A stretch of DNA of 64,000 nt from the human T2T-CHM13v2.0 reference genome, Homo sapiens, in assembly GCF_009914755.1 (NCBI RefSeq), contig NC_060947.1. One strand, written 5' to 3'. The notes beneath the pieces were generated by a model that was not told where the DNA came from, ran no database searches, and saw only the letters and a list, made by a program, of their open reading frames with translations. Shown in pieces: positions 1 through 18,659 of the stretch. Positions within the stretch are counted from its first letter, which is position 1, and each line of letters starts with the position of its first letter. The position numbers and the translations under genes were made by a program.

Positions 1-523
1 CACTCAGGAAATTGGTGGCTCAGAACAGGAAGCTTGTCTCATGTAATCGAATAGTGCTGGAGGAATCCAAAGCCTTCGTGTGCTGCAACATGAAGAGGGA
101 TCTGGAACAGGCCAACGAGAGAACATGTGAAGTACTGAAGAAAATCTGGGGTTCTGCCCAAGGGTTGGACTCCATGTGAAAGGACTTAGAAAGGAAGATG
201 AACGAGTTTCGAGTGTCAGGCTGCACACTGACCACATGGGGATCCGGCTGAGAAGAACACCATTGCTTCCACCTGTCCTTATCCATTCTCACAGCCTGAG
301 ACAAGCTCACTGGTAGCTTATGCTTCCAAGCAGGACTAGGAACATTCACGGTATTTATTCGGGAGTACTGACTCCGGAAAGTACAGGAAGCTTGGACTGC
401 TCGGCGCCATTGGTAGGGTCTTCCGTGGTGCACTTGGCCTTATTTATTTTTTACGACATTTGACAGAGGGCAGAGAGAGAGCAAGCATTAAAACGGCAGA
501 AGCTACTGGAAACGTCGTGAGCA

Positions 524-629
524 ATCTACAGTCATACCACCGTCAACGCTCCCAATCTTGCCTGGTCTCTGAAGTACAGAGTAGATGCAATTGGGCCCAG
601 GTTCGGGCCTGTTTCATTGTTGGATAGAA
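524..629 (+). pseudogene. 3'-truncated 5S rRNA retrocopy (S-unit copy 1)
   Basis: atctacagtcataccaccgtcaacgctcccaatct...gttcgggcctgtttcattgttggatagaa aligns to 5S nt ~1-88, with a 22-nt fold-back insert and a flanking degenerate TSD. Confidence 0.85.
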
Positions 630-1308
630 GGAACTTCCTGAATGCTTTGTTCAGCTTAAGCTGCGTATTGTTGAAGCACTCAATGGCCCAGCCATTCGAC
701 TAGGAGCATCCGTATTGCCTCTTTGTGATATGGTTTAGGCTAATGAAAAGACTTGGTTTCCAACACCCTCTTCTACCTCTGGGCAGATTCCAGATAGCTG
801 ATCTACCATTACGTTTCCGAAATCATGGGACGATCAGCTGCAAGCGAGACGATGCTCAGTGGGTTGAAACTGATCACACAGGAGGCATTTGGCAACGGCC
901 TTCTCTCCCAGCTGTTTGGATCCTGGACCTTCACTCAGGAAATTGGTGGCTCAGATCAAGAAGCTTGTCTCATGTAATCGAATAGTGCTGGAGGAATCCA
1001 ACACCTTGGTGTGCTGCAACATGAAGAGGGATCTAGAACAGGCCAACGAGAGAACATGTGAAGTACTGAAGAAAATCTGGGGTTCTGCCCAAGGGTTGGA
1101 CTCCATGTGAAAGGACTTAGAAAGGAAGATGAATGAGTTTCGAGTGTCAGGCTGCACACTGACCACATCGGGATCCAGCTGAGAAGAACACCATTGCTTC
1201 CGGCTGTCCTTCTTCATTCTCACAGCCTGAAACAAGCTCACTGGTAGCTTATGCTTGTAAGCAGGAGCGGGAACATTCACGCTATTTATTCGGGAGTACT
1301 CTGGATAA

Positions 1309-1384
1309 ATCATCCCATTATTTCGGAAATGTAATGCTAGGTCAGGTATCTGGAATCTTCCTGGAGGTAGAAGAGGGTATTGGA
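1309..1384 (-). repeat. 76-nt inverted copy of the unit's own sequence (also at 3285-3360, 5262-5337, 6307-6382)
   Basis: atcgtcccattatttcggaaatgtaatgctaggtcaggtatctggaatcttcctggaggtagaagagggtattgga (copy at 5262) is the reverse complement of 759-834 with 9 differences in 76 nt. Confidence 0.95.
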
Positions 1385-1567
1385 TGGAAGGAACTTCGTG
1401 AATGCGGTCATTGAACTCCAGAAAGTACACCAACCTTGTACTGCTCAGGGCCTTAGGTAGGGTCTTCTGTGGCGCACTTGACCTTATTTATGTTTTACAA
1501 CGTTTGACAGAGGACAGAAAGAGAGCAAGCATTAAAAGGGCAAAAGCTACCAGAAACATCGTGAACA

Positions 1568-1673
1568 ATCTACAGCCATACCACCGTGAACGCTCCCAAT
1601 CTCGTCTGGCCTCTGAAGTACAGAGTAGAGGAGATTGGGCCCAGGTAGGGGCCTGTTTCATAGTTGGATGGAA
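1568..1673 (+). pseudogene. 3'-truncated 5S rRNA retrocopy (L-unit copy 1)
   Basis: ATCTACAGCCATACCACCGTGAACGCTCCCAATCTCGTCTGGCCTCTGAAG matches 43/51 to human 5S GTCTACGGCCATACCACCCTGAACGCGCCCGATCTCGTCTGATCTCGGAAG. After the insert, CCAGGTAGGGGCCTGTTTCATAGTTGGATGGAA matches 24/33 to 5S nt 56-88. Confidence 0.9.
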
Positions 1674-2499
1674 GGAACTTTGTGAATGCTATCATTTAAC
1701 TTAAGCTGTCTATTACTAAACCAGTCAGCCGCCCAGCCATTCGACTAGGAGCATCCGTATTGCCTCTTTGTGATATGGTTTAGGCTAATGAAAAGACTTG
1801 GTTTCCAACACCCTCTTCTACCTCTGAGCAGATCCCACATAGCTGATCTACCATTACGTTTCCGAAATCATGGGACGACCAGCTGCAAGCGAGACGATGC
1901 TCACTGGGTTGAAACTGATCACTCAGGAGGCAGTTGGCAACGGCCTTCTCTCCCAGCTGTTTGGGTCCTGGACCTTCACTCAGGAAATTGGTGGCTCAGA
2001 TCAAGAAGCTTGTCTCATGTAATCGAATAGTGCTGGAGGAATCCAAAGCCTTGGTGTGCTGCAACATGAAGAGGCATCTGGAACAGGCCAACGAGAGAAC
2101 ATGTGAAGTACTGAAGAAAATCTGGGGTTCTGCCCAAGGGTTGGACTCCATGGGAAAGGACTTAGAAAGGAAGATGAATGAGTTTCGAGTGTCAGGCTGC
2201 ACACTGACCACATCGGGTTCCGGCTGAGAAGAACACCATTGCTTCCATCTGTCCTTATCCATTCTCACAGCCTGAAACAAGCTCACTGGTAGCTTATGCT
2301 TGCAAGCAGGACTGGGAACATTCAGGCTATTTATTCGGGAGTACTGACTCCAGAAAGTACAGCAACCTTGGACTGCTCAGCGCCATTGGTACGGTCTTCG
2401 GTGGTGCACTTGGCCTTATTTATTTTTTACGACATTTGACAGAGGACAGAGAGAGAGCAAGCATTAAAACGGCAGAAGCTACTGGAAACGTCGTGAACA

Positions 2500-2605
2500 A
2501 TCTACAGTCATACCACCGTGAACGCTCCCAATCTTGTCTGGTCTCTGAAGTACAGAGTAGATGTGATTGGGTCCAGGTTCGGGCCTGTTTCATTGTTGGA
2601 TAGAA
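2500..2605 (+). pseudogene. 3'-truncated 5S rRNA retrocopy (S-unit copy 2)
   Basis: Same element as 524-629, one 1976-bp dimer period downstream. Confidence 0.85.
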
Positions 2606-3543
2606 GGAACTTTCTGAATGCTTTGTTCCGCTTAAGCTGCGTATTGTTGAAGCACTCAATGGCCCAGCCATTCGACTAGGAGCATCCGTATTGCCTCTTT
2701 GTGATATGGTTTAGGCTAATGAAAAGACTTGGTTTCCAACACCCTCTTCTACCTCTGGGCAGATTCCAGATAGCTGATCTACCATTACGTTTCCGAAATC
2801 ATGGGACGATCAGCTGCAAGCGAGACGATGCTCAGTGGGTTGAAACTGATCACACAGGAGGCATTTGGCAACGGCTTTCTCTCCCAGCTGTTTGGATCCT
2901 GGACCTTCACTCAGGAAATTGGTGGCTCAGATCAAGAAGCTTGTCTCATGTAATCGAATAGTGCTGGAGGAATCCAAAGCCTTGGTGTGCTGCAACATGA
3001 AGAGGGATCTGGAACAGGCCAACGAGAGAACATGTGAAGTACTGAAGAAAATCTGGGGTTCTGCCCAAGGGTTGGACTCCATGTGAAAGGATTTAGAAAG
3101 GAAGATGAACGAGTTTCGAGTGTCAGGCTGCACAGTGACCACATCGGGTTCCAGCTGAGAAGAACACCATTGCTTCCGGGTGTCCTTATCCATTCTCACA
3201 GCCTGAAACAAGCTCACTGGTAGCTTATGCTTGTAAGCAGGACCGGGAACATTCACGCTATTTATTCGGGAGTACTCTGGATAAATCGTTCCATTATTTC
3301 GGAAATGTAATGCTAGGTCAGGTATCTGGAATCTTCCTGGAGGTAGAAGAGGGTATTGGATGGAAGGAACTTCGTGAATGCGATCATTGAACTCCAGAAA
3401 GTACACCAAGCTTGTACTGCTCGGGGCCTTAGGTAGGGTCTTCTGTGGCGCACTTGACCTTATTTATGTTTTACAACGTTTGACAGAGGACAGAAAGAGA
3501 GCAAGCATTAAAAGGGCAAAAGCTACCAGAAACATCGTGAACA

Positions 3544-3649
3544 ATCTACAGCCATACCACCGTGAACGCTCCCAATCTCGTCTGGCCTCTGAAGTACAGA
3601 GTAGAGGAGATTGGGCCCAGGTAGGGGCCTGTTTCATAGTTGGATGGAA
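3544..3649 (+). pseudogene. 3'-truncated 5S rRNA retrocopy (L-unit copy 2)
   Basis: Same element as 1568-1673. Confidence 0.9.
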
Positions 3650-4475
3650 GGAACTTTGTGAATGCTATCATTTAACTTAAGCTGTCTATTACTAAACCAG
3701 TCAGCCGCCCAGCCATTCGACTAGGAGCATCCGTATTTCCTCTTTGTGATATGGTTTAGGCTGATGAAAAGACTTGGTTTCCAACACCCTCTTCTACCTC
3801 TGGGCAGATTCCAGATAGCTGATCTACCATTACGTTTCCGAAATCATGGGACGACCAGCTGCAAGTGAGACGATGCTCAGTGGGTTGAAACTGATCACAC
3901 AGGAGGCATTTGGCAACGGCCTTCTCTCCCAGCTGTTTGGATCCTGGACCTTCACTCAGGAAATTGGTGGCTCAGATCAAGAAGCTTGTCTCATGTAATC
4001 GAATAGTGCTGGAGGAATCCAAAGCCTTGGTGTGCTGCAACATGAAGACGGATCTGGAACAGGCCAACGAGAGAACATGTGAAGTACTGAAGAAAATCTG
4101 GGGTTCTGCCCAAGGGTTGGACTCCATGTGAAAGGACTTAGAAAGGAAGATGAACGAGTTTTGAGTGTCAGGCTGCACACTGACCACATCGGGTTCCGGC
4201 TGAGAAGAACACCATTGCTTCCATCTGTCCTTATCCATTCTCACAGCCTGAGACAAGCTCACTGGTAGCTTATGCTTGCAAGCAGGACTGGGAACATTCA
4301 CGCTATTTATTCGGGAGTACTGACTCCAGAAAGTACAGCAACCTTGGACTGCTCAGCGCCATTGGTACGGTCTTCCGTGGTGCACTTGGCCTTATTTATT
4401 TTTTACGACATTTGACAGAGGACAGAGAGAGAGCAAGCATTAAAACGGCAGAAGCTACTGGAAACGTCGTGAACA

Positions 4476-4581
4476 ATCTACAGTCATACCACCGTGAACG
4501 CTCCCAATCTTGTCTGGTCTCTGAAGTACAGAGTAGATGCGATTGGGTCCAGGTTCGGGCCTGTTTCATTGTTGGATAGAA
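4476..4581 (+). pseudogene. 3'-truncated 5S rRNA retrocopy (S-unit copy 3)
   Basis: Same element as 524-629. Confidence 0.85.
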
Positions 4582-5520
4582 GGAACTTCCTGAATGCTAT
4601 TGTTCAGCTTAAGCTGCGTATTGTTGAAGCACTCAATGGCCCAGCCATTCGACTAGGAGCATCCGTATTGCCTCTTTGTGATATGGTTTAGGCTAATGAA
4701 AAGACTTGGTTTCCAACACCCTCTTCTACCTCTGGGCAGATTCCAGATAGCTGATCTACCATTACGTTTCCGAAATCATGGGACGACCAGCTGCAAGTGA
4801 GACGATGCTCAGTGGGTTGAAACTGATCACACAGGAGGCATTTGGCAACGGCCTTCTCTCCCAGCTGTTTGGATCCTGGACCTTCACTCAGGAAATTGGT
4901 GGCTCAGATCAAGAAGCTTGTCTCATGTAATCGAATATTGCTGGAGGAATCCAAAGCCTTGGTGTGCTGCAACATGAAGAGGGATCTGGAACAGGCCAAC
5001 GAGAGAACATGTGAAGTACTGAAGAAAATCTGGGGTTCTGCCCGAGGGTTGGACTCCATGTGAAAGGACTTAGAAAGGAAGATGAACGAGTTTCGAGTGT
5101 CAGGCTGCACACTGACCACACGGGGTTCCGGCTGAGAAGAACACCATTGCTTCCACCTGTCCTTATCCATTCTCACAGCCTGAGACAAGCTCACTGGTAG
5201 CTTATGCTTCCAAGCAGGACTAGGAACATTCACGCTATTTATTCGGGAGTACTCTGGATAAATCGTCCCATTATTTCGGAAATGTAATGCTAGGTCAGGT
5301 ATCTGGAATCTTCCTGGAGGTAGAAGAGGGTATTGGATGGAAGGAACTTCATGAATGCGATCATTGAACTCCAGAAAGTACACCAACCTTGTACCGCTCA
5401 GGGCCTTAGGTAGGGTCTTCTGTGGTGCACTTGACCTTATTTATGTTTTACAACGTTTGTCAGAGGACAGAAAGAGAACAAGCATTAAAAGGGCAAAAGC
5501 TACCAGAAACATCGTGAACA

Positions 5521-5626
5521 ACCTACACCCATACCACTGTGAACGCTCCCAATCTCGTCTGGCCTCTGATGTACAGAGTAGAGGAGATTGGGCCCAGGTA
5601 GGGGCCTGTTTCATAGTTGGATGGAA
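5521..5626 (+). pseudogene. 3'-truncated 5S rRNA retrocopy (L-unit copy 3, more diverged)
   Basis: acctacacccataccactgtgaacgctcccaatctcgtctgg..., a variant of 1568-1673. Confidence 0.87.
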
Positions 5627-6565
5627 GGAACTTTGTGAATGCTATCATTTAACTTAAGCTGTCTATTACTAAAGCAGTCAACAGCCCAGCCGTTCGACTA
5701 GGAGCACCCATATTGCCTCTTTGTGATATGGTTTTGGCTAATGAAAAGACTTGGTTTCCAACACCCTCTTCTACCTCTGGGCAGATTCCAGATAGCTGAT
5801 CTACCATTACGTTTCCGAAATCATGGGACGACCAGCTGCAAGCGAGACGATGCTCAGTGGTTTGAAACTGATCACACAGGAGGCATTTGGCAACGGCCTT
5901 CTCTCCCAGCTGTTTGGATCCTGGACCTTCACTCAGGAAATTGGTGGCTCAGATCAAGAAGCTTGTCTCATGTAATCGAATAGTGCTGGAGGAATCCAAA
6001 GCCTTGGTGTGCTGCAACATGAAGAGGGATCTGGAACAGGCCAACGAGAGAACATGTGAAGTACTGAAGAAAATCTGGGGTTCTGCCCAAGGGTTGGACT
6101 CCATGTGAAAGGACTTAGAAAGGAAGATGAATGAGTTTCGAGTGTCAGGCTGCACACTGACCACATCGGGTTCCAGCTGAGAAGAACACCATTGCTTCCG
6201 GCTGTCCTTATCCATTCTCACAGCCTGAAACAAGCTCACTGGTAGCTTATGCTTGCAAGCAGGACCGAGAACATTCACGCTATTTATTCGGGAGTACTCT
6301 GAATAAATCGTCCCATTATTTCGGAAATGTAATGCTAGGTCAGGTATCTGGAATCTTCCTGGAGGTAGAAGAGGGTATTGGATGGAAGGAACTTCGTGAA
6401 TGCGATCATTGAACTCCAGAAAGTACACCAACCTTGTACTGCTCAGGGCCTTAGGTAGGGTCTTCTGTGGCGCACTTGACCTTATTTATGTTTTACAACG
6501 TTTGACAGAGGACAGAAAGAGAGCAAGCATTAAAAGGGCAAAAGCTACCAGAAACATCGTGAACA

Positions 6566-6671
6566 ATCTACAGCCATACCACCGTGAACGCTCCCAATCT
6601 CGTCTGGCCTCTGAAGTACAGAGTAGAGGAGATTGGGCCCAGGTAGGGGCCTGTTTCATAGTTGAATGGAA
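6566..6671 (+). pseudogene. 3'-truncated 5S rRNA retrocopy (L-unit copy 4)
   Basis: Same element as 1568-1673. Confidence 0.9.
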
Positions 6672-8645
6672 GGAACTTTGTGAATGCTATCATTTAACTT
6701 AAGCTGTCTATTACTAAACCAGTCAGCCGCCCAGCCATTCGACTAGGAGCATCCGTATTGCCTCTTTGTGATATGGTTTAGGCTAATGAAAAGACTTGGT
6801 TTCCAACACCCTCTTCTACCTCTGAGCAGATCCCACATAGCTGATCTACCATTACGTTTCCGAAATCATGGGACGACCAGCTGCAAGCGAGACGATGCTC
6901 AGTGGGTTGAAACTGATCACTCAGGAGGCATTTGGCAACGGCCTTCTCTCCCAGCTGTTTGAGTCCTGGACCTTCACTCAGGAAATTGGTGGCTCAGATC
7001 AAGAAGCTTGTCTCATGTAATCGAATAGTGCTGAAGGAATCCAAAGCCTTGGTGTGCTGCAACATGAAGAGGGATCTGGAACAGGCCAACGAGAGAACAT
7101 GTGAAGTACTGCAGAAAATCTGGGGCTCTGCTCAAGGGTTGGACTCCATGTGAAAGTACTTACACAGGAAGATGAATGAGTTTCGAGTGTCAGGCTGCAC
7201 ACTGACCGCACCGGGTTCCGGCTGAGAAGAACACCATTGCTTCCAGCTGTCCTTATCCATTGTCACAGCCTGAGTCATGCTCGCTGGTAGCTCACGTGTG
7301 GAAGCAGGACTCGGAAAATCCACGCTATGTATTATCGAGTAGTTTGAAAGTACTGTAGCTTTAAAATAAAATAAAATCACTTAAAATAAAATGAAATACT
7401 ACAATGCTTTTCTGTCTAAGCATCAGTATTTTATAGTCATATACACACAACTATAACAGTTTAATGGTGATCACAGGATTGCTCTTAGAAGCTCTAATTT
7501 CTCTTGTCTTTGGCTAGTACTGTATAAAACCAGAAGTGTGTTTTATTGATTTTGGTGACAGAAAAATCTGAAATAATGTTTGTTTTGGTCATGTTTTCCT
7601 TCTAGAACAGAGAATCTAAAGGGGTATTAGCCCGCCTCACCTCCCCTGTCCTACATAGAGACACAGAGTCATCTGAGGCATTGGCTTTTTCTCCAAGTAG
7701 GTACCGATACCTCAGATTCGGGAAATTCCAAATCAAAAATAAGACTTAGCTTCTACAACAAATACTTCTGATGAAACATTCACTGAGGAGCATACTCCTA
7801 AACCAGACATATGTTTAAGATTCATGCTGAGATATCAGTTGGTTTCCCCTTCCTTTTAAAATACATCCAGTTCTTACCCAGTTACTATAAGCAAAGCAAT
7901 GTCTCTAGAAGAAAGCTTTCTTTGCAGTATTAGTGAAGCACTGAATAGCTTAAGTTTGAATATCTAGGTTACAAGTTAGTCTTTGGCGGGTTTTAAATAG
8001 TTTTTTGACCCTTTTGAAATATAACTATATGAGTGCTTCTTGTTGCTGGGTGAGAAATGCTACTTTATATACAGTTTTGGTTTTCGTTTTGCAGATATGA
8101 TTGATGTATTACACCACAATAAAGTATTTTTATGTTTACATAGTGTAATTTTTAGGTTCACTTAGAATACATTTTATTTAATAAATTAAAATTATTTCGG
8201 TACACTATTAAATGCAAAATCTCCTTTCCAAACAAAAAAGAACTACCTTATATTCGTCATTGAATGTTCTTGGTCTGTGCTTTTATGTTTATATAATATG
8301 GTGAATTCAGTATGGTGTCCAAGTGTGCCCTGCGTTGATAGACACGTGCCTTCCTTCCAGGAGTGGGTACTGACTCCAGACTCCAGATCCCTATTTCTAG
8401 TTAGGCTTCTGAGCTTGCAATCATATTGAATGTATGATGAGCAAAATAAAATCAAAACCTTATTTTTGTACATTTTTGAAATATATACTTAGAACTGACC
8501 ACCTCCCTGGCCCCATGGAGAGCTGTATCGTGTGTAAAGCCGCCTTTACCTTGATTCATGCAGTGTTTTTGCATCTGTGGGACCTACCTTTTCGTTCATT
8601 AGTTTGAACTATACATAAACTGTACGATCTGTAAAGTTTTTATAT

Positions 8646-8712
8646 AATAAATATTCACCTGTGAAAACTGGTTAAATAAAACTAATATTTCTTACACACG
8701 CACACACAAAAA
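8646..8712 (+). terminator. Poly(A) signals and decayed poly(A) tail of the CDYL retrocopy
   Basis: AATAAA at 8646 and 8675, followed by ...cttacacacgcacacacaaaaaa. Confidence 0.75.
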
Positions 8713-10215
8713 AGCATTCCACAATGGGCATGACAAAAAGTCCCTCTTTCAGAAAGATGCTTCTGCAGTAGAAGTTGGCTACCTTGATGCAATGACATGG
8801 CCAGTTCTGATCCTCTAATTTGTTTGGGATGCTTCTGCTACATTTTCAAATGACTTCAGTCAGTGGTTCCCACAAATGAAATATTTGCCAGACAAGACGT
8901 TGTTGCATTTCTGTGACTTTTACATTTATTAAACAATTGCTTCCTCCTCCCAGGGTAATAGCCTCCAATCTCCCCACTTTTTCAAAACATTATTGACAAT
9001 TTTTCTACCATATGTTGACACTGTGTTTCAATTCTCGTATCATTTATTCCCTAGGGCACAATTGGTTCTGCTATGACAATCTCCAGGGTAAGGATTCAAT
9101 TGTACAAGGTTATGTGAGCTTGCAAATGAAGGAGACAGAGAGAGAGAGAGAGAGAAAAAAAAAAAGGAAAAGGTGGAGGAGGGAAGGAGGGGACAAGAGG
9201 GGGAGAGAGAGAAAGTACAAATGGGAGACCTCAACTCTAGCCATTAAAAATGGTGGTTCTAAAAATCCACCACACAGTCAGAACTCAGCTTTTTACATGT
9301 GCTCACATCCATACAGAAAAGACATGTTTTGTGTTTTTCCTAGTGAATTCTTGGCAAATACTGTCAGTTGTGAAATACAAGATGGGGAACTCTTTCTCTG
9401 AAAACGTAGCCGGGGAAAAATGATGCAGTTAGGTGGAGAAATAGCTGCCTTGAAAAACAAGTTTCCTTGAGTTGATGAAACACTAGAGGAGAGAAGAGGT
9501 CCCCTTGCATGTCTTCCCCATCTCTGTGTTTATTTGCTGATCCAAACTGATTACTGTTAAAATATGCATGCCAGCATTTCATTTTCAACAAATGCTACTC
9601 CAAGTATTCATTAGCGTCTTATCCACTGTCTCTAAAATAATCTACAGTGGCCTGAATAGCTGTAGAATGACAGGAGAAAGATTGCAAGGCGACGTGCATG
9701 GGGGCCCTGAGGGCAAGGCACAGCTTGCTGGCTCCGTGGTAAGGGGTGGGTACTTGGCATCAGCCCCTCAGCAGAGAGGGCAGGACTGGGTGTAGCAAGT
9801 GACTCACAGAAAATGCATTACCCCATTGAAATGTCACCAGAATTGAATTGAAATGTCACCAAAGAAGCTCATGGGGTGAGAAATTGCCATGTGCTTTAAA
9901 AAATAATTATTATTAAATCCAACTAAAGCATGTACATAATTGAATCTGAGGTACTAGCAATCCTTGTTCCATCTTTCTTCACCCCCATCCTCCACCCCAG
10001 GAGCAACAACTTTCCACTCCATTCTGTTCCTTCTAGAATTTTCCTCTATATTTCTAAATAATTTTCATATACTGTTATTTCTCAATTTATTAATTTTAGT
10101 CATTTTTATCAACTTCTGTTATGATACTGGAGGGTTTTTCTGGCCTAACTACCCCAGTTTGCCTTGACCCATCCCCTCAATTTGGATACTATGAGTTAAA
10201 AAAAAAATTAATCGT

Positions 10216-10514
10216 CTTTTTTTTTTTTTTTTAAAGACAGGGTCTCACTTCACTGCCCAGGCTGAAGTACAGTGGCACAATCACGGCTCGCTGCAGCTTC
10301 AACCTCCTGGGCCCAAGTGATCCTCCCACCTCAGCCTCCCAAGTAGCTAGGACTAAAGACACACTCCACCAAACTCAGCTAATTTTTAAAACTTTATAGA
10401 GAAGGGGTCTCACTTTGTTGCCCAATCTGGTCTTGAACTCCTGGCCTCAAGCAATCCTCCCACCTAGGCCTCCCAAAGCACTAGGATTACAGGCATGACC
10501 CACCACACCTGGCC
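10216..10514 (-). mobile_element. AluJ-like SINE
   Basis: Poly-T followed by agacagggtctcact...ggattacaggcatgacccaccacacctggcc. Confidence 0.9.
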
Positions 10515-11202
10515 CCTAATACAGTCTTTCTGTTATTATAGCTTAATATGCTCTCTGTTGATCCACGTGGCAAACTATGACTGCATTTCCTTTCTTGTAC
10601 AACTCTGAGTATTTTCTGGGATTAATAACTGTCTCATGTAATTGCTTAGTTTTCTAGAGATGTTCTCTGATTTTTTTCCAAATGCTTTCCCCAAATGCTC
10701 ACACACATTAAATAACCTAACTCGCCCATGTCTCCACCCAAACACTGCCACTGAGAGCCATGTGTCCTCCTGCTCTGCAATATACCAGTTTAGCTTTAAA
10801 CCCAGCACACGGCTAGTGTCCTAAAATACCCCAACCTCTTTCCAGCATGGGACCTTGTCTCCTGGTTTCCTTGTCTTCCTCCCTTCCTGGTTTACTATTT
10901 TGTGTTGCTGAAATACATTCCCTAGTAGCTCCTACAGAGACGTGTACAGGAGAGATATATTTTTCATCCTTGCACATTTAACAACCTGTTAACTTTGCCC
11001 TCATCACTCTGCCCGAGTGAGTGCTCTCTGCACTGCACCCTCCTCAGAAATTTACCATTGCTCCACTTCCCCCGCAGTATTAGCCCTAAGGAACCTGCCG
11101 CCTTTGAACTGTCAGGTGTGGCCTGTTTGCCTCTGTAGAAACTTTTAGCCTAGTGCTGACCAAAGTCAATCGCAATTTTCTTTCTTTTTTTTTTTAACTT
11201 AA

Positions 11203-11849
<647 letters not shown>

Positions 11850-11855
11850 CCATCC

Positions 11856-12115
11856 TCAATTTTCTAATAGACATAATTTAAATGGTAAAAAGAAAGAAGT
11901 GGAATTCGTTTTAATAATGTATTTTATTTAATCCAGTATATTTAAAAATGCTATCATTTCAAGCTGCAATCAATATGAAAATTTTCGGTGAGACATTTTA
12001 CTATGCCTTTGTTATCATGAGTGTATTTCACACTCTCAGCACGTCTCAGTGTGGACCTGTCATGTGCTCAGAGCTCCACAGCCACTGGAGCCGACAGCCG
12101 CTACATGACTGTGTA
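11856..12115 (+). mobile_element. MER33-like hAT-Charlie DNA transposon relic
   Basis: taaaaagaaagaagtggaattcgttttaataatgtattttatttaatccagtatat...atcatttcaagctgcaatcaatatgaaaatt resembles the recalled MER33 consensus. Confidence 0.7.
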
Positions 12116-12611
12116 GTTCTACAGCCTTCTGTCCATCCCTGGTGCTCTGGGGTGCCCACAGTGGTCCTCATTGGCATTTAATCTCTGTGCTTGTGCTTGT
12201 GCTGTGTCCCTCCAGAATCTTTCCAGAATCATGCCTCCTATGCCGTCATTGCTAAAGTCCCCCTCTGGGACCAGAGGTCCTCCTGGTGAGGCCACGGCTT
12301 CTGAACGCCATGGGCATTTGGGGTTCCCACACACCTTGTCACACCTAAAGCCACAAGAGTCCTGGTGCTCAAGTGCTCGAGTGCAGAAGAGGGACTTAAG
12401 GACTGCAGCCCGCCAACCTTCCCAGCAGGTGTCGGTCACACCAGGTCATGTCACTGCCGAGGATTTCTCAGGTCCCCAGGGCATGGCCTGAGATTCTTGG
12501 AATCCTGCAGGATTTCTTAGGGTTTCAACATTTCCTGCTAAAGAACCAACAATTCCTGGAAGGGGCGACGCTTCAGCCTTTATTGAGCAACGTGCAAAAA
12601 GAAAACTGGTG

Positions 12612-12746
12612 GGCCAGGTGCAGTGGCACATGCCTGTAATCCCAGCACTTTGGGAGGCCGAGGCGGGAGGACTGCTTGAGCGCTTAGAGTATGAGACCAG
12701 CGTGGGCAATATAGTGAGACCCTGTCTCTACAAAAATAAATAAATA
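12612..12746 (+). mobile_element. FLAM/Alu left monomer
   Basis: ggccaggtgcagtggcacatgcctgtaatcccagc...gaccctgtctctacaaaaataaa with no right arm. Confidence 0.85.
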
Positions 12747-13109
12747 AGAAGAAGACTGGCTTACAGCCAGCAGAGACGAGACCTTGCCTCAGTGGGCCTC
12801 AGGCGTGGGGAACTGGGCTCAGGCAGGGAGAGGGATTGGAGAGACAGAGGGTGAGGAGAGAGGAATACAGGGCACACCTTGTCTCTTTCCCATGTCGCTG
12901 AAGACATCAAGGACTCTCTCTCTCTCTCTCTCCTCATGCCCCTCCTTCCCTTCATCCCCCTCTCCCACCAACGTCTCTCTCTTCCAGGTTCCCAGGAGGC
13001 TTAAGGAGAATATAATCCCTTTACGTCTGCTTAGGAGGCAAAAGATTCCTCCCTCGTATTTGTCATCTTAAAACAACAGCCAAGAGCATGCCCCCTATGC
13101 ATTTGTCAA

Positions 13110-13290
13110 ATAGCGTTTGCCATCAGCTGGACACTTCCACACCCTTCTACAAGAATGACCTCATTGACTCCCCGTAACAACCCTAAAGAAGACATTGTTT
13201 CTGTCCCTATTTTACAGATGAGGAAACTGAGGCCCAGGGACGGTCAGGGGGTAGCCAGGTTGTGTCCCTGGGGGCGGTTCCAAACTTCAT
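13110..13290 (-). mobile_element. MIR SINE relic
   Basis: MIR core ctattttacagatgaggaaactgaggcccag. Confidence 0.8.
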
Positions 13291-14689
13291 GCTCTCACCG
13301 TGAGTGGCAGCTTCCTGTCTCTGTGGGGTGCCTGCACAATTAGGGGCAGAGTCAGACATGTTTGGGCGTTTTGCCATGAAATGGTTTACTCTGAAATAAA
13401 GAAAGTCTGTGGGTGTTGGACTGAATTTTGCAGAGTGGATTTAAATCCAGACTTTCGCAGAGTGGATTTAAACCAGAGATTGAGAGCAAGTTCTTAGTTC
13501 TAAATGCTCCTGCCAGCTTCCATCCTGACCAGAAATGAAAGCCTGGTGCTGAGACCGGCCCCCAGCCCCCTGCCGTAATCACCCTGAGTCTAGTTCCCTT
13601 CACTCACCCCCACCCCGCCAGTACCCCCAGGGAAAGTCAGCCAAAGGCAGGAGAACATATCTAACCTCTGTCCAGTAACACCTTCAAATGTGAAACTCCC
13701 ACTTAATTATGTTGCCATTACATTTTAGTCCATCCTGTCTTTCAACTGTGAACACATTTTATTTTTTCCTTCCTGCCTTACTCAACTTTCCTGCTTTCAG
13801 GGTTTGAATTTCAAACCTGTGCATGTTTCTTGCTAGGTGCCAGCAAGCTCATAACTAATGAGATCTAAGGAATTTGGACTCCACTAATTTGCATTACGGG
13901 ATGGTTTTGACAGAAGCTGGCAATATCGAACCTTTGCTGCACGAAAAAAAGGCTTGCTAATCATTTTAATGGCGTAAACATGGCAGGTCATGGAGCCATG
14001 TGATTGTTTACATACATGTAAACAGTTCATGCTGTTTTCTACTTGCTCTTTTGTACACAGTATCTGCTCTTCGGTTTTCGGGACTCTCAGTGCAGCTACC
14101 TCATCCTTGGGTAACTTGAGTGTCCTTTTGCTTTTTGCTTTGTTGTTACATTTGCATTTGACCTGTTATTGTGTCCCAGAAAGCATCTTGCAGGCCACAC
14201 CGACCCGAGAATGGGTAAATATGTTCTGTTTTCGTCTCTTAAAACCCTACGCGTCTGGCATTTCAGAAGCTGCGCGATGTTAGATCCTTTATGTAACAAC
14301 CAACCCTAGGTGGAGAGACTGCTAAAACAGGAAAAAGGTTTTCTGAATCAATGAGCAAAACCTTGCTGTGAATTTCCTAAAGATGGCACAGACAGGATAA
14401 ATACATACTCCCAACTTGGAAACAGGGACATTTGAGGCAAAGCCTCCAGCACTAGGAATACATATTCCAGTCAGAGAAAAAGAACTGGTAATTGCCAATC
14501 TGTACATGAGCTGTGAGGGGAGTCCCCATGCAATGACACTGCAATCACCTTTGAACTAACTGTCAGGAAATAAATAAATAACGGAATGTGGCTTTTGAGT
14601 TTTAGTATAATGTTTCAATAACCATCTACGAATAATTAGCTGATTCAGGACAAGTGTTTTCAAAAGTGTATTAAAATATAGCTCTGATC

Positions 14690-15015
<326 letters not shown>

Positions 15016-15376
15016 TCAATTAATTGGCACAAATTCTCCTTCGACAAAGCTAATGAATCGTTTTTCATGCATTAGTAAATATTACATAACTAGAAATTGT
15101 GTCTTCCCTTACTGTGGTGCTGATATTGTTAGCATGCATCCAAAAATGTGACCTTGGATATTCCAGATATATTGTTGGATTCTAGCATAGTAATTATTAT
15201 CTCATTTTACTGGGTTGTTTTTTTTTCCTCCAAGCTTCCCCCGAAAAGTGCTATACTAATTAGGAATTATTCTCATTTGTTCATTAAAGCAAGCCCTCAA
15301 AAGATATCCTTAAGATCATGATTTATTAACCGAAACCAGATTATTATATGTTCCCAGCTTAATAAAAGTATAATTA

Positions 15377-16161
15377 GGCCAGGCACAGTGGCTCACACCT
15401 GTAATCCCAACACTGTGAGAGGCCAAGGAGGGTGGATTGCTCAAGCCCAGGAGTTGGAGACCAGCCTGGGGAACACAGCAAAACCCCATCTCTACTAAAA
15501 ATAAAAAAAAATTAGCTGAGCATGGTAGAGCACCTGTAGTCCCAGCTACTCAGGAGACTGAGGTGGGAGGATTGCTTGAGTCCAGGAGTTCGAGAACGGC
15601 ATGGGCAACATAGCGAGACCCCCATCTCTTCAAAAAAATTTAAAAATTGGGCCAGGCAGCCCAGGTGGCTCATGCCTGTAATCCCAGCACTTTGGGAGGC
15701 TGAGGTAGGCAGATCACTTGAGGACAGGAGTTTGAGACTCTTCAAGGCTGCAGTGAGCTGTGATCATACCACTGCATTCCAGCCTGGGTGACACAGTAAG
15801 ACCCTGTCGAAAAAAAAAAAGAAAAAAAAACACTACAATTTTTCTTTAAATATTTTATTTATTTATTTATTTATTGAGACAGGGTCTTGCTCTGTCACCC
15901 AGGCTGGAGCGCAGTGGTGCAATCACAGCTCACTGCAGCCTCGACCTCCCAGGACCAAGAGATCCTCCACCTCAGCCTCCTGTATAGCTAAGACTACAGC
16001 CATGTGCCACCACACTCAGCTAATTTTTTATTTATTTATTTTGTAGATACGGGGTCTTGCTATGTTGCCCATACTGGTCTCGAACTCCTGGGCTCAAGCA
16101 ATCCTCCTGCTTCAGCCTCCCAAAGTGTTGGGATTACAGGTATGAACCATCACACCCAGCC
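15377..16161. mobile_element. Alu cluster (AluJ-like + strand pieces 15377-15830; - strand 15855-16161)
   Basis: Alu motifs in both orientations, tail to tail. Confidence 0.88.
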
Positions 16162-16177
16162 ATTCTCTATTTTTCTG

Positions 16178-16905
16178 AATTTTTTTATTGTGATAAAATA
16201 TATATAACATAAAAATTGCCCTTTTGGCCATTTCTAAATGTTCTGTTCATGATGTTGATCACATTTATGATGTTGTACAATTATCACCACCACCTGTCTC
16301 CAGAACTTTCTCCTTTTCCCAAACTGAAACTCTGTCCCCGCTAAGCAATAACTCCTCATGCCTTCCTCCTGCAGCCTCTGGTAACCTCTAATGCATTTTC
16401 TGTCTCTGATTCTGCCCATTCTAGATATTTCATAGAAGTGCAATCATACGCTATCTGTCCTTTTGCATCTGGCTTATTTCATCTAACCCAATACTTTCAA
16501 AGTTCATCCATGTTGCAATATGACTCAGAACTTCATTCTTTTTTAAGGCTGAATAATATTCCATTGTATGGATATGCCACCTTTTGTTTATCCATTCACT
16601 TGGGCTGCTTCTACCTTTTGGCTATGGTAAACGACCCTGCGATGAACACTGGTGTGTAAGTATGTGTTTGGGTTCTTGCGTTCAATCCTGCAGTGTATAC
16701 TACAAAGACGAATTGCTGGATCATTTGGTAATTCTACGTTTAACTCCTTGAGGAACTGCCCAGCTCTTTCAGCAGCTGCTGCACTGTGTTACATTGCAAT
16801 TGGCCATGTGTGAGTGTTCCAATTTCTCCACATCCTCACCAACACTTGTTATTTTCTGTTGGTTGTTTGGTTGGTTGTTTAATTTTAGCCATCCTAGTAG
16901 GAATG
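16178..16905 (-). mobile_element. Old L1 (L1M-type) 3' end fragment
   Basis: tttttaaggctgaataatattccattgtatggatatgccac...ccaatttctccacatcctcaccaacacttgtt, typical L1M antisense. Confidence 0.85.
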
Positions 16906-17576
16906 AGCAACACTCACTCTTGATAGAAAAACACATTGAAGATCTAATTTTGGTGCTGCAGAGAACAGGGGGACTGGGTGATTAGGAAGCAAAAGAAGCC
17001 TCTGGGAAGGAGGAGTAGAGAAGTGAGGGGTTAGAAGGAAAATGACATGGGACAGGGATCATAAACTGTGCACTGGGTTTATGTTATCATTAGCCTTTCC
17101 AGAATATGGAGGCCTGGCCTATATCCCTCAATCAGGGTCTATATACCAACAGGAAGAAATGCACATGTGGATCTCTTTCACCTTACAATGCTCTGAGTAG
17201 AGCAAGATAACTCAGAGGGAAAAAGGCTATTTTCTGCTTAACTGACATTACTATCCGATAAGCCCTAGTCTCTGAGCAACACAGGGGGCCGTAAATTCAT
17301 TAGGAATACTGTTCCTACAAACTTGTTCAACCTGTAGCCAGAAACATCCAAGTTTAAAAAAAAAAAATAGGTGTAGTATACTGCATAGCATGTTGTGTAT
17401 CACATGTAGTCACCATTGAGGATATTTACCTAGTGGTCTTTTTCCTTTGTTACTACAATAGACAATTAAATGATAAACACTTTTATATCTTTAAGACATA
17501 TAAATAGAAAAAAAATCAAGGGGATTTGGGTATTTTTCATTATATTTGTGTGTTTATGATAAAAAACACATAACTG

Positions 17577-17996
17577 GGCCAGACACAGTGGCCCATGCCT
17601 ATATTCCCAGCACTTTGAGAGGCCGATCTGGGAAGATGGCTTGAGCTCAGGAGTTAGAGACAAGCCTAGGCAACATAGGGAGACCCCATCTCTACAAAAC
17701 AACTTAAAAATTAGGTAAGCATGATGATGCATGCCTGTAGTCCCAGCTACCTGGGAGCCTGAGGTGGGAGGATTGCCTGAGTCCGGGAGTTCAAGACCAG
17801 CCTGGGCAAAATGGCAAAACTCCACCTTTACAAAAACTACAAAATTAGTCAGGTATGGTGGCACAGGCCTGTAATCCAAGCTACTCAGGAGGCTGAGGTG
17901 AGAGGATCACTTGAGTCCAGGAGGCTGAGGCTGCAGTGAGCTGTGATTGTGCCACTGCTCTCTAGCCTGGACAGAGCAAGACCCTGTCTTAAACAA
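17577..17996 (+). mobile_element. AluJ-like SINE(s), partially duplicated
   Basis: Alu left and right arm motifs, with an extra right-arm segment. Confidence 0.85.
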
Positions 17997-18049
17997 ACAA
18001 AAGTCACCCAGGGGGTAAACATCAGAGCCTGATCTTTAAAATGATATAT

Positions 18050-18659
18050 TGTGTGGTTGAAATGTTAAAAACCAACCACACCAAGTGTTGGTGAGGATGT
18101 GGGGAAACTGGAAATCTCATACACAGTTAGTACAAATGTAAAATGATACAACCATTTTGTTGGTTTTTTTTTTATCGCTTCACAAAGTTTGTTTCTGAAA
18201 GAGTTAAAACATATATCTATAATAGGATCCAGCCTTTCCAGTTATAGATACTTATCCAAGAGAAATAGCATAGTTCCATACAAAAACTGATAAGCAAATG
18301 CTCATAGCAGCTCTATTTGTAATAGCTGGAAACTGTAAAAACCATAAACAATCCAAATGTCCATCAATAGATGAACAGAGAAACAAACCATAATGCAACA
18401 TACAGTGGAATACTACTCAGCAATAAAAAGGAATCGATGACCGATACATGAAACAGCATGAATGAATCTCAAAATTATCACCCTTAGTGAAAGAAAAAAT
18501 CCAGACAAAAAAGAATACAGACTGTCTAACTCCATTCATATAAACTCAAGATAATGTGGCAGGAAGCAGACCAGTGGTTACTTGGGAATAGAAGAATGGG
18601 GAAGGGCTGGAGGGAGGGGTTACAAAGGGCTTGAGGAAATGTTTAGAAGTGATAAGAAT

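What the first reader, a model, noticed from the sequence alone, without database searches (positions are those of the whole stretch)
759..1879. 76-nt inverted repeat in every long unit creates repeated dsRNA stems, with a G:U bias on the + strand
Seen: the antisense arm (1309-1384, 3285-3360, 5262-5337, 6307-6382) is complementary to sense copies at 759-834, 1804-1879, 2735-2810, 3780-3855, 4712-4787, 5757-5832 and 6802-6877, ~420-475 nt away on either side. For 5262-5337 versus 759-834 there are 9 differences in 76 nt. Four of the five transitions remain G:U pairs in a + strand RNA, so 71/76 positions pair. The arm matches the array's own derived sequence (ctcttctacctc), so it arose from, or co-evolved with, the array. 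Inference: the stem is long enough for Dicer, ADAR or PKR recognition. The wobble bias rests on few sites and is only suggestive.
Basis: partly seen in the sequence, partly recalled or inferred. Interest (0 to 1): 0.82.

Follow-up and report, generated by a model that had tools for sequence, protein, structure and literature searches.

The report
Inverted repeat in X-linked pseudogene array
A 76-base inverted copy inside the longer units of a known Xp22.31 tandem repeat, which is an amplified dead copy of the CDYL gene, is real and would fold transcripts into double-stranded stems, but it looks like a neutral scar of a DNA copying error rather than a selected RNA structure.

Summary
Every long (1045-nt) unit carries a 76-nt segment that is the reverse complement (83-88%) of a segment found once in every unit, 419 or 474 nt away. 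Predicted stems form on both strands.

What it is: window 1-7341 is the 3' end of a 25.8-kb, 26-unit array. The array is an amplified fragment of a processed CDYL pseudogene with a 5S-rRNA-derived insert. It is almost surely the 'Xp22.31 5sRNA' array of Warburton 2008. The antisense arm is part of a 113-nt insertion: an 8-nt filler, the inverted copy, then a 38-nt direct copy, with short microhomologies at two joins. The insertion is absent from short units, from the terminal unit and from CDYL. I read it as a template-switch insertion that spread with the long unit.

The G:U bias is not a signal:
- 4 of 5 transitions gives p=0.19, and the array consensus gives 4 against 2.
- Three of the four wobbles are CpG decay.
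- The only annotated RNA is on the minus strand, where 1-2 wobbles remain.
- No pair of 76 shows a compensatory change among the 11 long units, and 5 of 6 variable pairs break.
- Arm divergence (13%) equals that of neighbouring sequence with no known function.

The locus is a plausible but ordinary ADAR substrate if transcribed. Interest is low to moderate.

The parts
1..7341 (+). 3' part of a tandem array. The whole array is window -18441..7341, which is CHM13 chrX:8,971,559-8,997,341. It has 26 units in the order SLSSLSSLSSLSLSSLSLSLSLSLLx. Units in the window: S 1-931, L 932-1976, S 1977-2907, L 2908-3952, S 3953-4884, L 4885-5929, L 5930-6974, terminal partial 6975-7341.
1301..1413 (+). 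113-nt insertion that defines a long unit (also at 3277-3389, 5254-5366 and 6299-6411). It consists of an 8-nt filler, the 76-nt inverted copy of the sense arm, and a roughly 38-nt direct copy of unit 733-770.
   Evidence: alignment A1 columns 370-482; blastn self-hits; absent from the terminal unit, CDYL, chr3 and CDY
1309..1384 (+). Antisense arm (also 3285-3360, 5262-5337 and 6307-6382)
759..834 (+). Sense arm, one per unit (also 1804-1879, 2735-2810, 3780-3855, 4712-4787, 5757-5832 and 6802-6877). It derives from a coding exon of CDYL in the enoyl-CoA-hydratase-like domain.
1380..1417 (+). Direct-copy part of the insertion. It is 89-92% identical to unit 733-770 (window 1664-1701) and overlaps the inverted copy by a 5-nt microhomology (TTGGA).
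1569..1618 (+). 5S-rRNA-derived piece present in every unit (example copy). It is 88% identical over 50 nt to a true 5S gene on chr1 and is flanked by a duplication of about 14 nt of the CDYL-derived target.
   Evidence: no Rfam 5S match in the array itself
2407..7075 (-). Terminal exon of the predicted lncRNA LOC107985634. It runs antisense to the pseudogene units and contains 3 antisense arms and 5 sense arms. The next exon, 7164-7358, also lies in the terminal unit.
   Evidence: hub annotation; fold
7028..8699 (+). Continuation of the processed pseudogene beyond the array. It is 85% identical to the CDYL 3'UTR on chr6.

Best explanation
The 76-nt inverted arm is a fossil of one DNA copying accident inside a tandemly amplified processed pseudogene.

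How the array arose. A spliced CDYL cDNA was inserted at Xp22.31. It spans window -19400 to about 8699. It later acquired a 5S-rRNA-derived insert. A segment of about 920 nt covering the C-terminal ECH-domain coding part and the start of the 3'UTR was then duplicated in tandem.

How the arm arose (inferred). In one unit, about 15 nt before the tandem junction, a replication or repair template switch copied 76 nt of nearby array sequence in reverse. It then copied about 38 nt in direct orientation from about 100 nt further upstream in the unit. It rejoined through 2-5-nt microhomologies. This made the long unit.

How it spread (inferred). Unequal exchange spread long and short units as SL and SSL higher-order repeats.

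Consequence. Any transcript through the array, on either strand, is predicted to fold into 76-bp imperfect stems with 420-475-nt loops. If the locus is expressed, such stems should be edited by ADAR1 in the same way as inverted Alu pairs. Nothing indicates that the pairing itself has been selected.

Shown: the anatomy, the origin from the array lineage, the derived state of the insertion, the predicted folding, and the lack of covariation. Inferred: the template-switch mechanism, neutrality, and editing.
For: Array and parent gene:
- The unit matches chr6:4812555-4812768 at 79% (unit 742-954) and chr6:4822907-4823215 at 80% (unit 54-359). It also matches a contiguous chr3 copy and many chrY loci.
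- The chr6 piece is flanked by AG and GT splice sites. Sequences at least 10 kb apart on chr6 are contiguous on X, so the copy is processed.
- The chrY relative L007 encodes a 560-aa Chromo + ECH protein (Pfam). Its best PDB matches are CDY2, CDY1 and CDYL.
- The unit's reading frame has 5 stops in 173 codons.
- The pseudogene continues 5' of the array (68% to the CDY1 locus) and 3' of it (85% to the CDYL 3'UTR).

The insertion is derived and local:
- It is absent from the 14 short units, the terminal unit, CDYL, the chr3 copy and CDY.
- It shares the array's derived states, including a 1-nt deletion.
- All 36 of 36 genome hits to it lie inside this array.
- TTGGA is shared at the join between the inverted and direct copies, and AC at the right-hand join (read directly).

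No sign of selection on pairing:
- There are 10 differences in 76 nt (13%) between the consensus arms. The S and L consensus units differ by about 14% in unit 484-800 (45 substitutions). The pseudogene differs from the CDYL 3'UTR by 14.7%.
- Of 76 pairs across the 11 long units, 0 are compensatory, 5 only break and 1 becomes a wobble.
- The sense-arm variants typical of long units (G24A, T31C, G35C) all break pairs.
- Diversity among units is 0.009-0.023 in the arms and 0.009-0.035 in the flanks.
- Array-wide minor variants show 43 C>T/A>G against 43 G>A/T>C, so there is no strand bias.

Folding.
Against: - The paralog covariation test has little power. Long units are about 98-99% alike and only 6 pairs vary.
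- The comparator regions are assumed to be neutral, not shown to be.
- The arm has been kept in all 11 long units. The long unit has persisted long enough to diverge 13% from its source, and a functional reading would also predict that.
- On the + strand the stem is a little stronger for 6 of 8 adjacent pairs.
- A predicted lncRNA does run through the array, and one preprint lists it among the top-changed genes in ALS brain regions (one passage seen).
- No expression, editing, small-RNA or primate data were available.
Confidence: 0.75

Rival explanations
1. The stems are a selected RNA feature. Array transcripts (LOC107985634 or a sense transcript) use repeated 76-bp dsRNA stems to recruit ADAR, PKR, Staufen or Dicer. 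The effect would scale with copy number, for example on local chromatin or on innate-immune tone.
For: The stems are predicted on both strands and in the annotated exon. The arm is present in 11 of 11 long units. The + strand keeps 4 G:U pairs. The array varies in copy number between assemblies: 10.1 kb in hg18 against 25.8 kb in CHM13.
Against: There is no compensatory change, and 5 of 6 variable pairs break. Arm divergence equals that of neighbouring unconstrained sequence. The G:U excess is not significant and mostly comes from CpG decay. The annotated RNA is on the strand with fewer wobbles. 14 of 25 full units lack the antisense arm.
Confidence: 0.1
2. The inverted repeat matters at the DNA level. 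Arms 0.4-0.5 kb apart could form hairpins on single-stranded DNA or promote template switching and unequal exchange. That would drive the array's S/L reshuffling and its copy-number variation.
For: The insertion itself looks like a template-switch product with microhomologies. The array has an irregular SSL/SL order. Its size differs between assemblies.
Against: All 26 units are collinear and in direct orientation, and no segment between the arms is inverted. Tandem arrays without inverted repeats also vary in copy number. A spacer of 419-474 nt is long for cruciform formation (general knowledge, recalled).
Confidence: 0.08
3. The hairpin is a pseudogene-derived source of endo-siRNAs that silence the parent genes CDYL or CDY, as described for mouse oocyte pseudogene hairpins (recalled).
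For: The sense arm derives from a CDYL coding exon. The hairpin geometry fits an hpRNA.
Against: The longest exact match between any arm and the CDYL, CDY1, CDY2 or chr3 copies examined is 8-11 nt. Arm-to-parent identity is about 75-80%. siRNA-type targeting is therefore not possible.
Confidence: 0.02

Closest known systems
The 'Xp22.31 5sRNA' tandem array of Warburton et al. 2008 (PMC2588610, Table 2A; passages seen)
   Same: Same band, a 1.9-kb unit (equal to the S+L dimer of 1976 nt found here), more than 95% identity, a 5S RNA label, and copy-number variable. It is almost surely this locus. hg18 coordinates cannot be lifted over here. The distance to TBL1X fits only by my recalled TBL1X coordinate.
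   Different: In the passages I saw, the paper gives only size, unit, copies, identity, CNV flag and label. It lists 10.1 kb and 5 copies, where CHM13 has 25.8 kb and 26 sub-units. I saw no mention of the CDYL origin, of the short/long sub-units or of the inverted arm. The word 'inverted' occurs once, in a dot-plot legend.
Inverted Alu pairs in human transcripts, the main ADAR1 substrates (general knowledge, recalled)
   Same: An intramolecular, imperfect duplex made by two oppositely oriented copies of one repeat a few hundred nt apart. No sequence-specific function is needed for editing.
   Different: The stem is 76 bp rather than about 300 bp. The arms arose by a local templated insertion, not by two retrotranspositions. 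The structure is reiterated 11 times in an array. Editing here is untested.
Templated and inverted insertions at rearrangement junctions (FoSTeS/MMBIR or polymerase-theta end joining; recalled)
   Same: Short inverted and direct segments copied from within about 0.5 kb, joined through 2-5-nt microhomologies, next to a tandem-duplication junction.
   Different: The event here is old (13% diverged) and fixed, and it was then amplified as part of a repeat unit. The mechanism is inferred from sequence alone.
Pseudogene-derived hairpin endo-siRNA loci of mouse oocytes (recalled)
   Same: An inverted duplication of processed-pseudogene sequence that can make a long hairpin RNA.
   Different: No stretch longer than 11 nt is identical to the parent gene. 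No small-RNA data are available. Human somatic cells process long dsRNA poorly (recalled).

Membership tests
Processed (retroposed) pseudogene of CDYL | Nucleotide homology to the exons of the parent gene | tested here: met
   79-80% identity to two chr6 segments and 85% to the 3'UTR. That the chr6 locus is CDYL rests on its position (recalled) and on the CDY/CDYL identity of the homologous chrY ORF.
Processed (retroposed) pseudogene of CDYL | Introns absent: exons contiguous | tested here: met
   Segments at least 10 kb apart on chr6, one bounded by AG and GT, are contiguous in the X unit.
Processed (retroposed) pseudogene of CDYL | Reading frame disabled | tested here: met
   5 stops in 173 codons and a 1-nt deletion.
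Processed (retroposed) pseudogene of CDYL | Poly(A) tail and target-site duplication of the whole insert | not tested
   The 3' end lies beyond window 8699 and was not examined.
Macrosatellite / large VNTR | Tandem head-to-tail units of about 1 kb or more with high identity | tested here: met
   26 units of 931-1045 nt, 94-100% identical within a type.
Macrosatellite / large VNTR | Copy number polymorphic in the population | not testable with these tools
   Indirect only: 10.1 kb in hg18 with the CNV flag '+' against 25.8 kb in CHM13.
5S rRNA gene array | Each unit holds a 5S rRNA gene recognisable by the Rfam model RF00001 | tested here: not met
   No Rfam match at E<=1 in 1-8000 and no 5S match at E<=10 in 1545-1710. 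Only 50 nt are 88% identical to a true 5S gene that scores 113.8 bits. It is a 5S-derived fragment, not a gene.
Long-hairpin / inverted-repeat dsRNA locus (ADAR-substrate type) | Both arms lie within one transcript | tested here: inconclusive
   The arms lie in the terminal exon of a predicted RefSeq lncRNA model (hub annotation). No RNA data were seen.
Long-hairpin / inverted-repeat dsRNA locus (ADAR-substrate type) | A stable duplex well above 30 bp | tested here: met
   Predicted only: 64-71 of 76 positions paired, with dG of -94 to -118 kcal/mol.
Long-hairpin / inverted-repeat dsRNA locus (ADAR-substrate type) | Clustered A-to-I editing, or dsRNA antibody signal | not testable with these tools
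   No such data are held.
Conserved structured RNA | Covariation that maintains the pairs | tested here: not met
   0 of 76 pairs have changes on both sides among the 11 long units. The observed value equals every shuffle. Power is low and no other species were available.
hpRNA / endo-siRNA source against the parent gene | siRNA-length perfect complementarity to the target | tested here: not met
   The longest exact match is 8-11 nt.

The most novel reading that the evidence does not exclude
The Xp22.31 CDYL-pseudogene array is a copy-number-variable generator of dsRNA. Its antisense lncRNA folds into up to 11 stacked 76-bp stems. Their dose differs between people. The stems could act as an endogenous ADAR1/MDA5/PKR ligand or nucleate local silencing next to TBL1X. 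The inverted arm would then have been retained for that reason, despite showing no covariation among the near-identical human paralogs.
Probability: 0.07. Interest if true: 0.6.

Novelty: new member of a known kind. Interest (0 to 1): 0.25.

Why it matters
The finding as submitted suggested a selected dsRNA structure repeated in a human X-linked array. The evidence instead gives an ordinary reading that explains the locus in full. It is a processed CDYL pseudogene with a 5S-derived insert, amplified in tandem, and one unit type bears a templated inverted insertion.

What is useful:
- It corrects the label of a listed human '5sRNA gene' array. The units hold no recognisable 5S gene.
- It gives a clean fossil example of a template-switch insertion that was propagated by array expansion.
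- It flags a multi-copy hairpin locus that multi-mapping-aware editing or dsRNA pipelines could check cheaply.

If the stems did prove to be edited or sensed in a copy-number-dependent way, the locus would be a natural dose series for endogenous dsRNA.

Tried and rejected
- Rfam scans of 1-8000 at E<=1 and of 1545-1710 at E<=10 found no family for the stem and no 5S. The only hits were three weak chance matches.
- Tandem Repeats Finder missed the array because its longest period is 500.
- Literature. 'LOC442443' gave 0 papers. 'LOC107985634' gave 1 preprint, an expression list only. 'TBL1X' with 'macrosatellite' gave 3 papers that were irrelevant judging by the listing. CDYL + pseudogene + tandem + Xp22 gave 1 Y-chromosome review. 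5S rRNA + Xp22 + tandem array + pseudogene gave 0. 'CDYL pseudogene' gave 0. Macrosatellite + inverted repeat + dsRNA gave nothing on this locus in the 10 papers listed.
- The T2T repeat preprint's main text mentions only the chr1 5SRNA_Comp, with no 'chrX' and no 'CDYL'. Its supplements are closed and might list this array.
- The siRNA-against-CDYL idea is rejected.
- A general strand asymmetry of mutation as the cause of the G:U excess is rejected (43 against 43).
- Cross-species covariation could not be run because no primate sequence is held.

Full report
OBSERVATION

The repeat finder on 1-8000 reports 28 inverted pairs, of which the 25 longest are shown. They join the antisense arms at 1309-1384, 3285-3360, 5262-5337 and 6307-6382 to the sense arms at 759-834, 1804-1879, 2735-2810, 3780-3855, 4712-4787, 5757-5832 and 6802-6877. 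The arms are 75-76 nt long and 83-88% complementary. Nearest partners lie 419 or 474-476 nt away.

Direct repeats show units spaced 931/932 or 1045 nt apart. An alignment of the eight units shows that the long units differ from the short ones by a single 113-nt block, columns 370-482, which contains the antisense arm.

On the - strand the count is 67, 1 and 8.

MFE folds of 759-1384 and 1309-1879 close the full stem on both strands:
- 759-1384: + -258.0 kcal/mol, z -11.5; - -237.3 kcal/mol, z -10.0.
- 1309-1879: + -206.8 kcal/mol, z -6.9; - -209.5 kcal/mol, z -8.4.
No shuffle folded as well.

WHAT THE ARRAY IS

The window's assembly is held, so I read 30 kb upstream. The array runs from window -18441 to 7341, which is about 25.8 kb. 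It has 26 units: 14 short, 11 long and one terminal partial unit, in the order SLSSLSSLSSLSLSSLSLSLSLSLLx. It holds 26 sense arms and 11 antisense arms.

A genome search with one long unit found the following:
- Two chr6 segments 10 kb apart: unit 742-954 at 79% and unit 54-359 at 80%.
- One contiguous copy on chr3.
- Many chrY loci.

The chr6 segment that holds the sense arm is bounded by AG and GT, so it is an exon. The chrY relative L007 carries a 560-aa ORF with a Chromo domain and an enoyl-CoA hydratase domain. Its best solved-structure matches are CDY2, CDY1 and CDYL. That chr6:4.8 Mb is CDYL is my recollection of its position. The homology argument does not depend on that.

In the CDY frame the unit reads as recognisable ECH-domain sequence with 5 stops in 173 codons. 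The pseudogene continues on both sides of the array:
- Window -19400..-18300 aligns to the 5' part of the CDY1 locus (68%). It starts where RefSeq starts the pseudogene LOC442443.
- Window 7028-8699 aligns to the CDYL 3'UTR (85%).

The locus is therefore one processed CDYL pseudogene in which a segment of about 920 nt was amplified in tandem. That segment covers the C-terminal coding part and the start of the 3'UTR.

Each unit also holds a 5S-rRNA-derived piece. Unit 638-687 is 88% identical over 50 nt to a chr1 sequence that Rfam scores as a full 5S rRNA at 113.8 bits. The chr3 copy lacks this piece. Its two flanking alignments overlap by 14 nt, which implies a target-site duplication on X. 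The array copies themselves no longer match the Rfam 5S model.

Warburton et al. 2008 list an 'Xp22.31, 10.1 kb, 1.9-kb unit, 5 copies, >95%, CNV +, 5sRNA' array at hg18 chrX:9,331,977-9,342,069. [quoted passage not shown] The 1.9-kb unit equals the S+L dimer of 1976 nt. I take it to be this array. I could not lift the coordinates over.

WHAT THE ANTISENSE ARM IS

The 113-nt block is absent from the short units, from the terminal unit, from the CDYL 3'UTR, from the chr3 copy and from CDY1. The long unit is therefore the derived form.

The block has three parts:
- 8 nt of unclear origin.
- The reverse complement of the 76-nt sense arm.
- A direct copy, 89-92% identical, of unit 733-770. This piece overlaps the inverted copy by TTGGA and rejoins the unit at a shared AC.

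Both templates lie within about 0.5 kb of the insertion site. The site is about 15 nt upstream of the tandem-duplication junction.

The arm shares the array's derived states against CDYL, chr3 and CDY. At arm position 66 it keeps the ancestral base that the sense arms have lost.

The block occurs nowhere else in the genome. All 36 of 36 hits lie inside the array: 11 full-length copies and 25 sense arms on the opposite strand.

My inference is a replication or repair template switch of the fold-back type. Unequal exchange then propagated the new unit type.

IS THE PAIRING SELECTED?

G:U bias. With array-wide consensus arms there are 10 differences in 76 nt. Six are transitions, of which 4 give G:U on + and 2 give G:U on -. 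Four are transversions. Outgroups show that three of the four + wobbles are decay of ancestral CpGs, and two of these are the two halves of one CpG. Among the 22 adjacent arm pairings in the array, + strand G:U counts are 4-5 and - strand counts are 1-6. Minor variants over the whole array show no strand asymmetry: 43 C>T/A>G against 43 G>A/T>C.

Strand of the RNA. The only annotated RNA, the predicted lncRNA LOC107985634, is on the - strand (hub annotation).

Covariation. On an alignment of the 11 long units, 0 of 76 pairs show a change on both sides. 64 never vary and 6 never pair. Of the 6 pairs that vary, 5 only lose pairing and 1 becomes a wobble. The observed values equal all 500 shuffles. 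Power is low because the units are nearly identical.

Rates. Diversity among units is 0.009-0.023 in the arms and 0.009-0.035 in the neighbouring segments. Arm-to-arm divergence is 13%. That matches the 14% between the S and L consensus in unit 484-800 (45 substitutions, against 1-2% elsewhere). It also matches the 14.7% between the pseudogene and the CDYL 3'UTR.

All of this fits two inverted copies drifting apart neutrally since an old event. Alternatively, the copy may have been made with errors from the start. I cannot separate these two.

WHAT IT WOULD DO

The stems are thermodynamically robust. Duplex energies for 8 adjacent pairs are -94 to -118 kcal/mol on + and -101 to -110 kcal/mol on -. 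In the MFE fold of the 4669-nt minus-strand exon 2407-7075, all three antisense arms pair with sense arms at 65-68 of 76 nt.

By general knowledge (recalled), such a duplex exceeds what ADAR and PKR need, and it resembles a short inverted-Alu pair. If the locus is transcribed, editing is the expected outcome.

The stems cannot supply siRNAs against CDYL or CDY. The longest exact match of any arm to the copies examined is 8-11 nt.

All units are collinear, so the arms have not caused inversions in this haplotype.

LITERATURE

Beyond the Warburton table, I found no description of the CDYL origin, of the short/long units or of the inverted arm. The T2T repeat preprint's main text mentions only the chr1 5S composite. 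Its supplements were closed and may list the array. One preprint names LOC107985634 among the top-changed genes in ALS brain regions (one passage).

VERDICT

The wobble bias and the co-evolution of the arms are not supported.

The best explanation, with confidence 0.75, is a neutral template-switch insertion amplified within a known tandem array of a processed CDYL pseudogene. This is a new member of a known kind. Interest is 0.25.

Noticed in passing
window 1-7341 and upstream to -18441: The array listed in print as '5sRNA genes' is really a tandemly amplified fragment of a processed CDYL pseudogene. The 5S-derived piece no longer matches the Rfam 5S model.
   Followed up: yes
window 1546-1690 (unit 615-760) and the same place in every unit: The 5S-derived insert of about 107 nt sits inside the CDYL-derived sequence and is flanked by a duplication of about 14 nt of the target. 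It has no poly(A), and only the first 50 nt or so are still clearly 5S-like. The way it was inserted is unclear.
   Followed up: partly
unit positions 484-800 (e.g. window 371-687 against 1415-1731): Short and long units differ by about 14% in this block (45 substitutions between the consensus sequences) but by only 1-2% elsewhere. Part of the unit is homogenised across types and part is not.
   Followed up: partly
whole array, window -17558..6974: The upstream half is mostly SSL trimers (2.9 kb) and the downstream half SL dimers (2.0 kb), ending in LL. hg18 held 10.1 kb where CHM13 holds 25.8 kb.
   Followed up: partly
whole array: Minor variants within unit types show 86 transitions against 84 transversions. 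That ratio is unusually low for human DNA. Possible causes are conversion tracts between the S and L types or errors in my majority-rule polarisation.
   Followed up: no
window 7072-7277 and 7164-7358: A RefSeq 'silencer' element and an internal exon of the antisense lncRNA both lie in the terminal partial unit of the pseudogene array.
   Followed up: no
L002/L004/L015 (chr3:16.69 Mb) and chrY loci L005-L010: A second, independent processed CDYL-like copy lies on chr3. It is 72-74% identical and has no 5S piece and no insertion. Numerous CDY-family copies on chrY share the unit's homology.
   Followed up: partly
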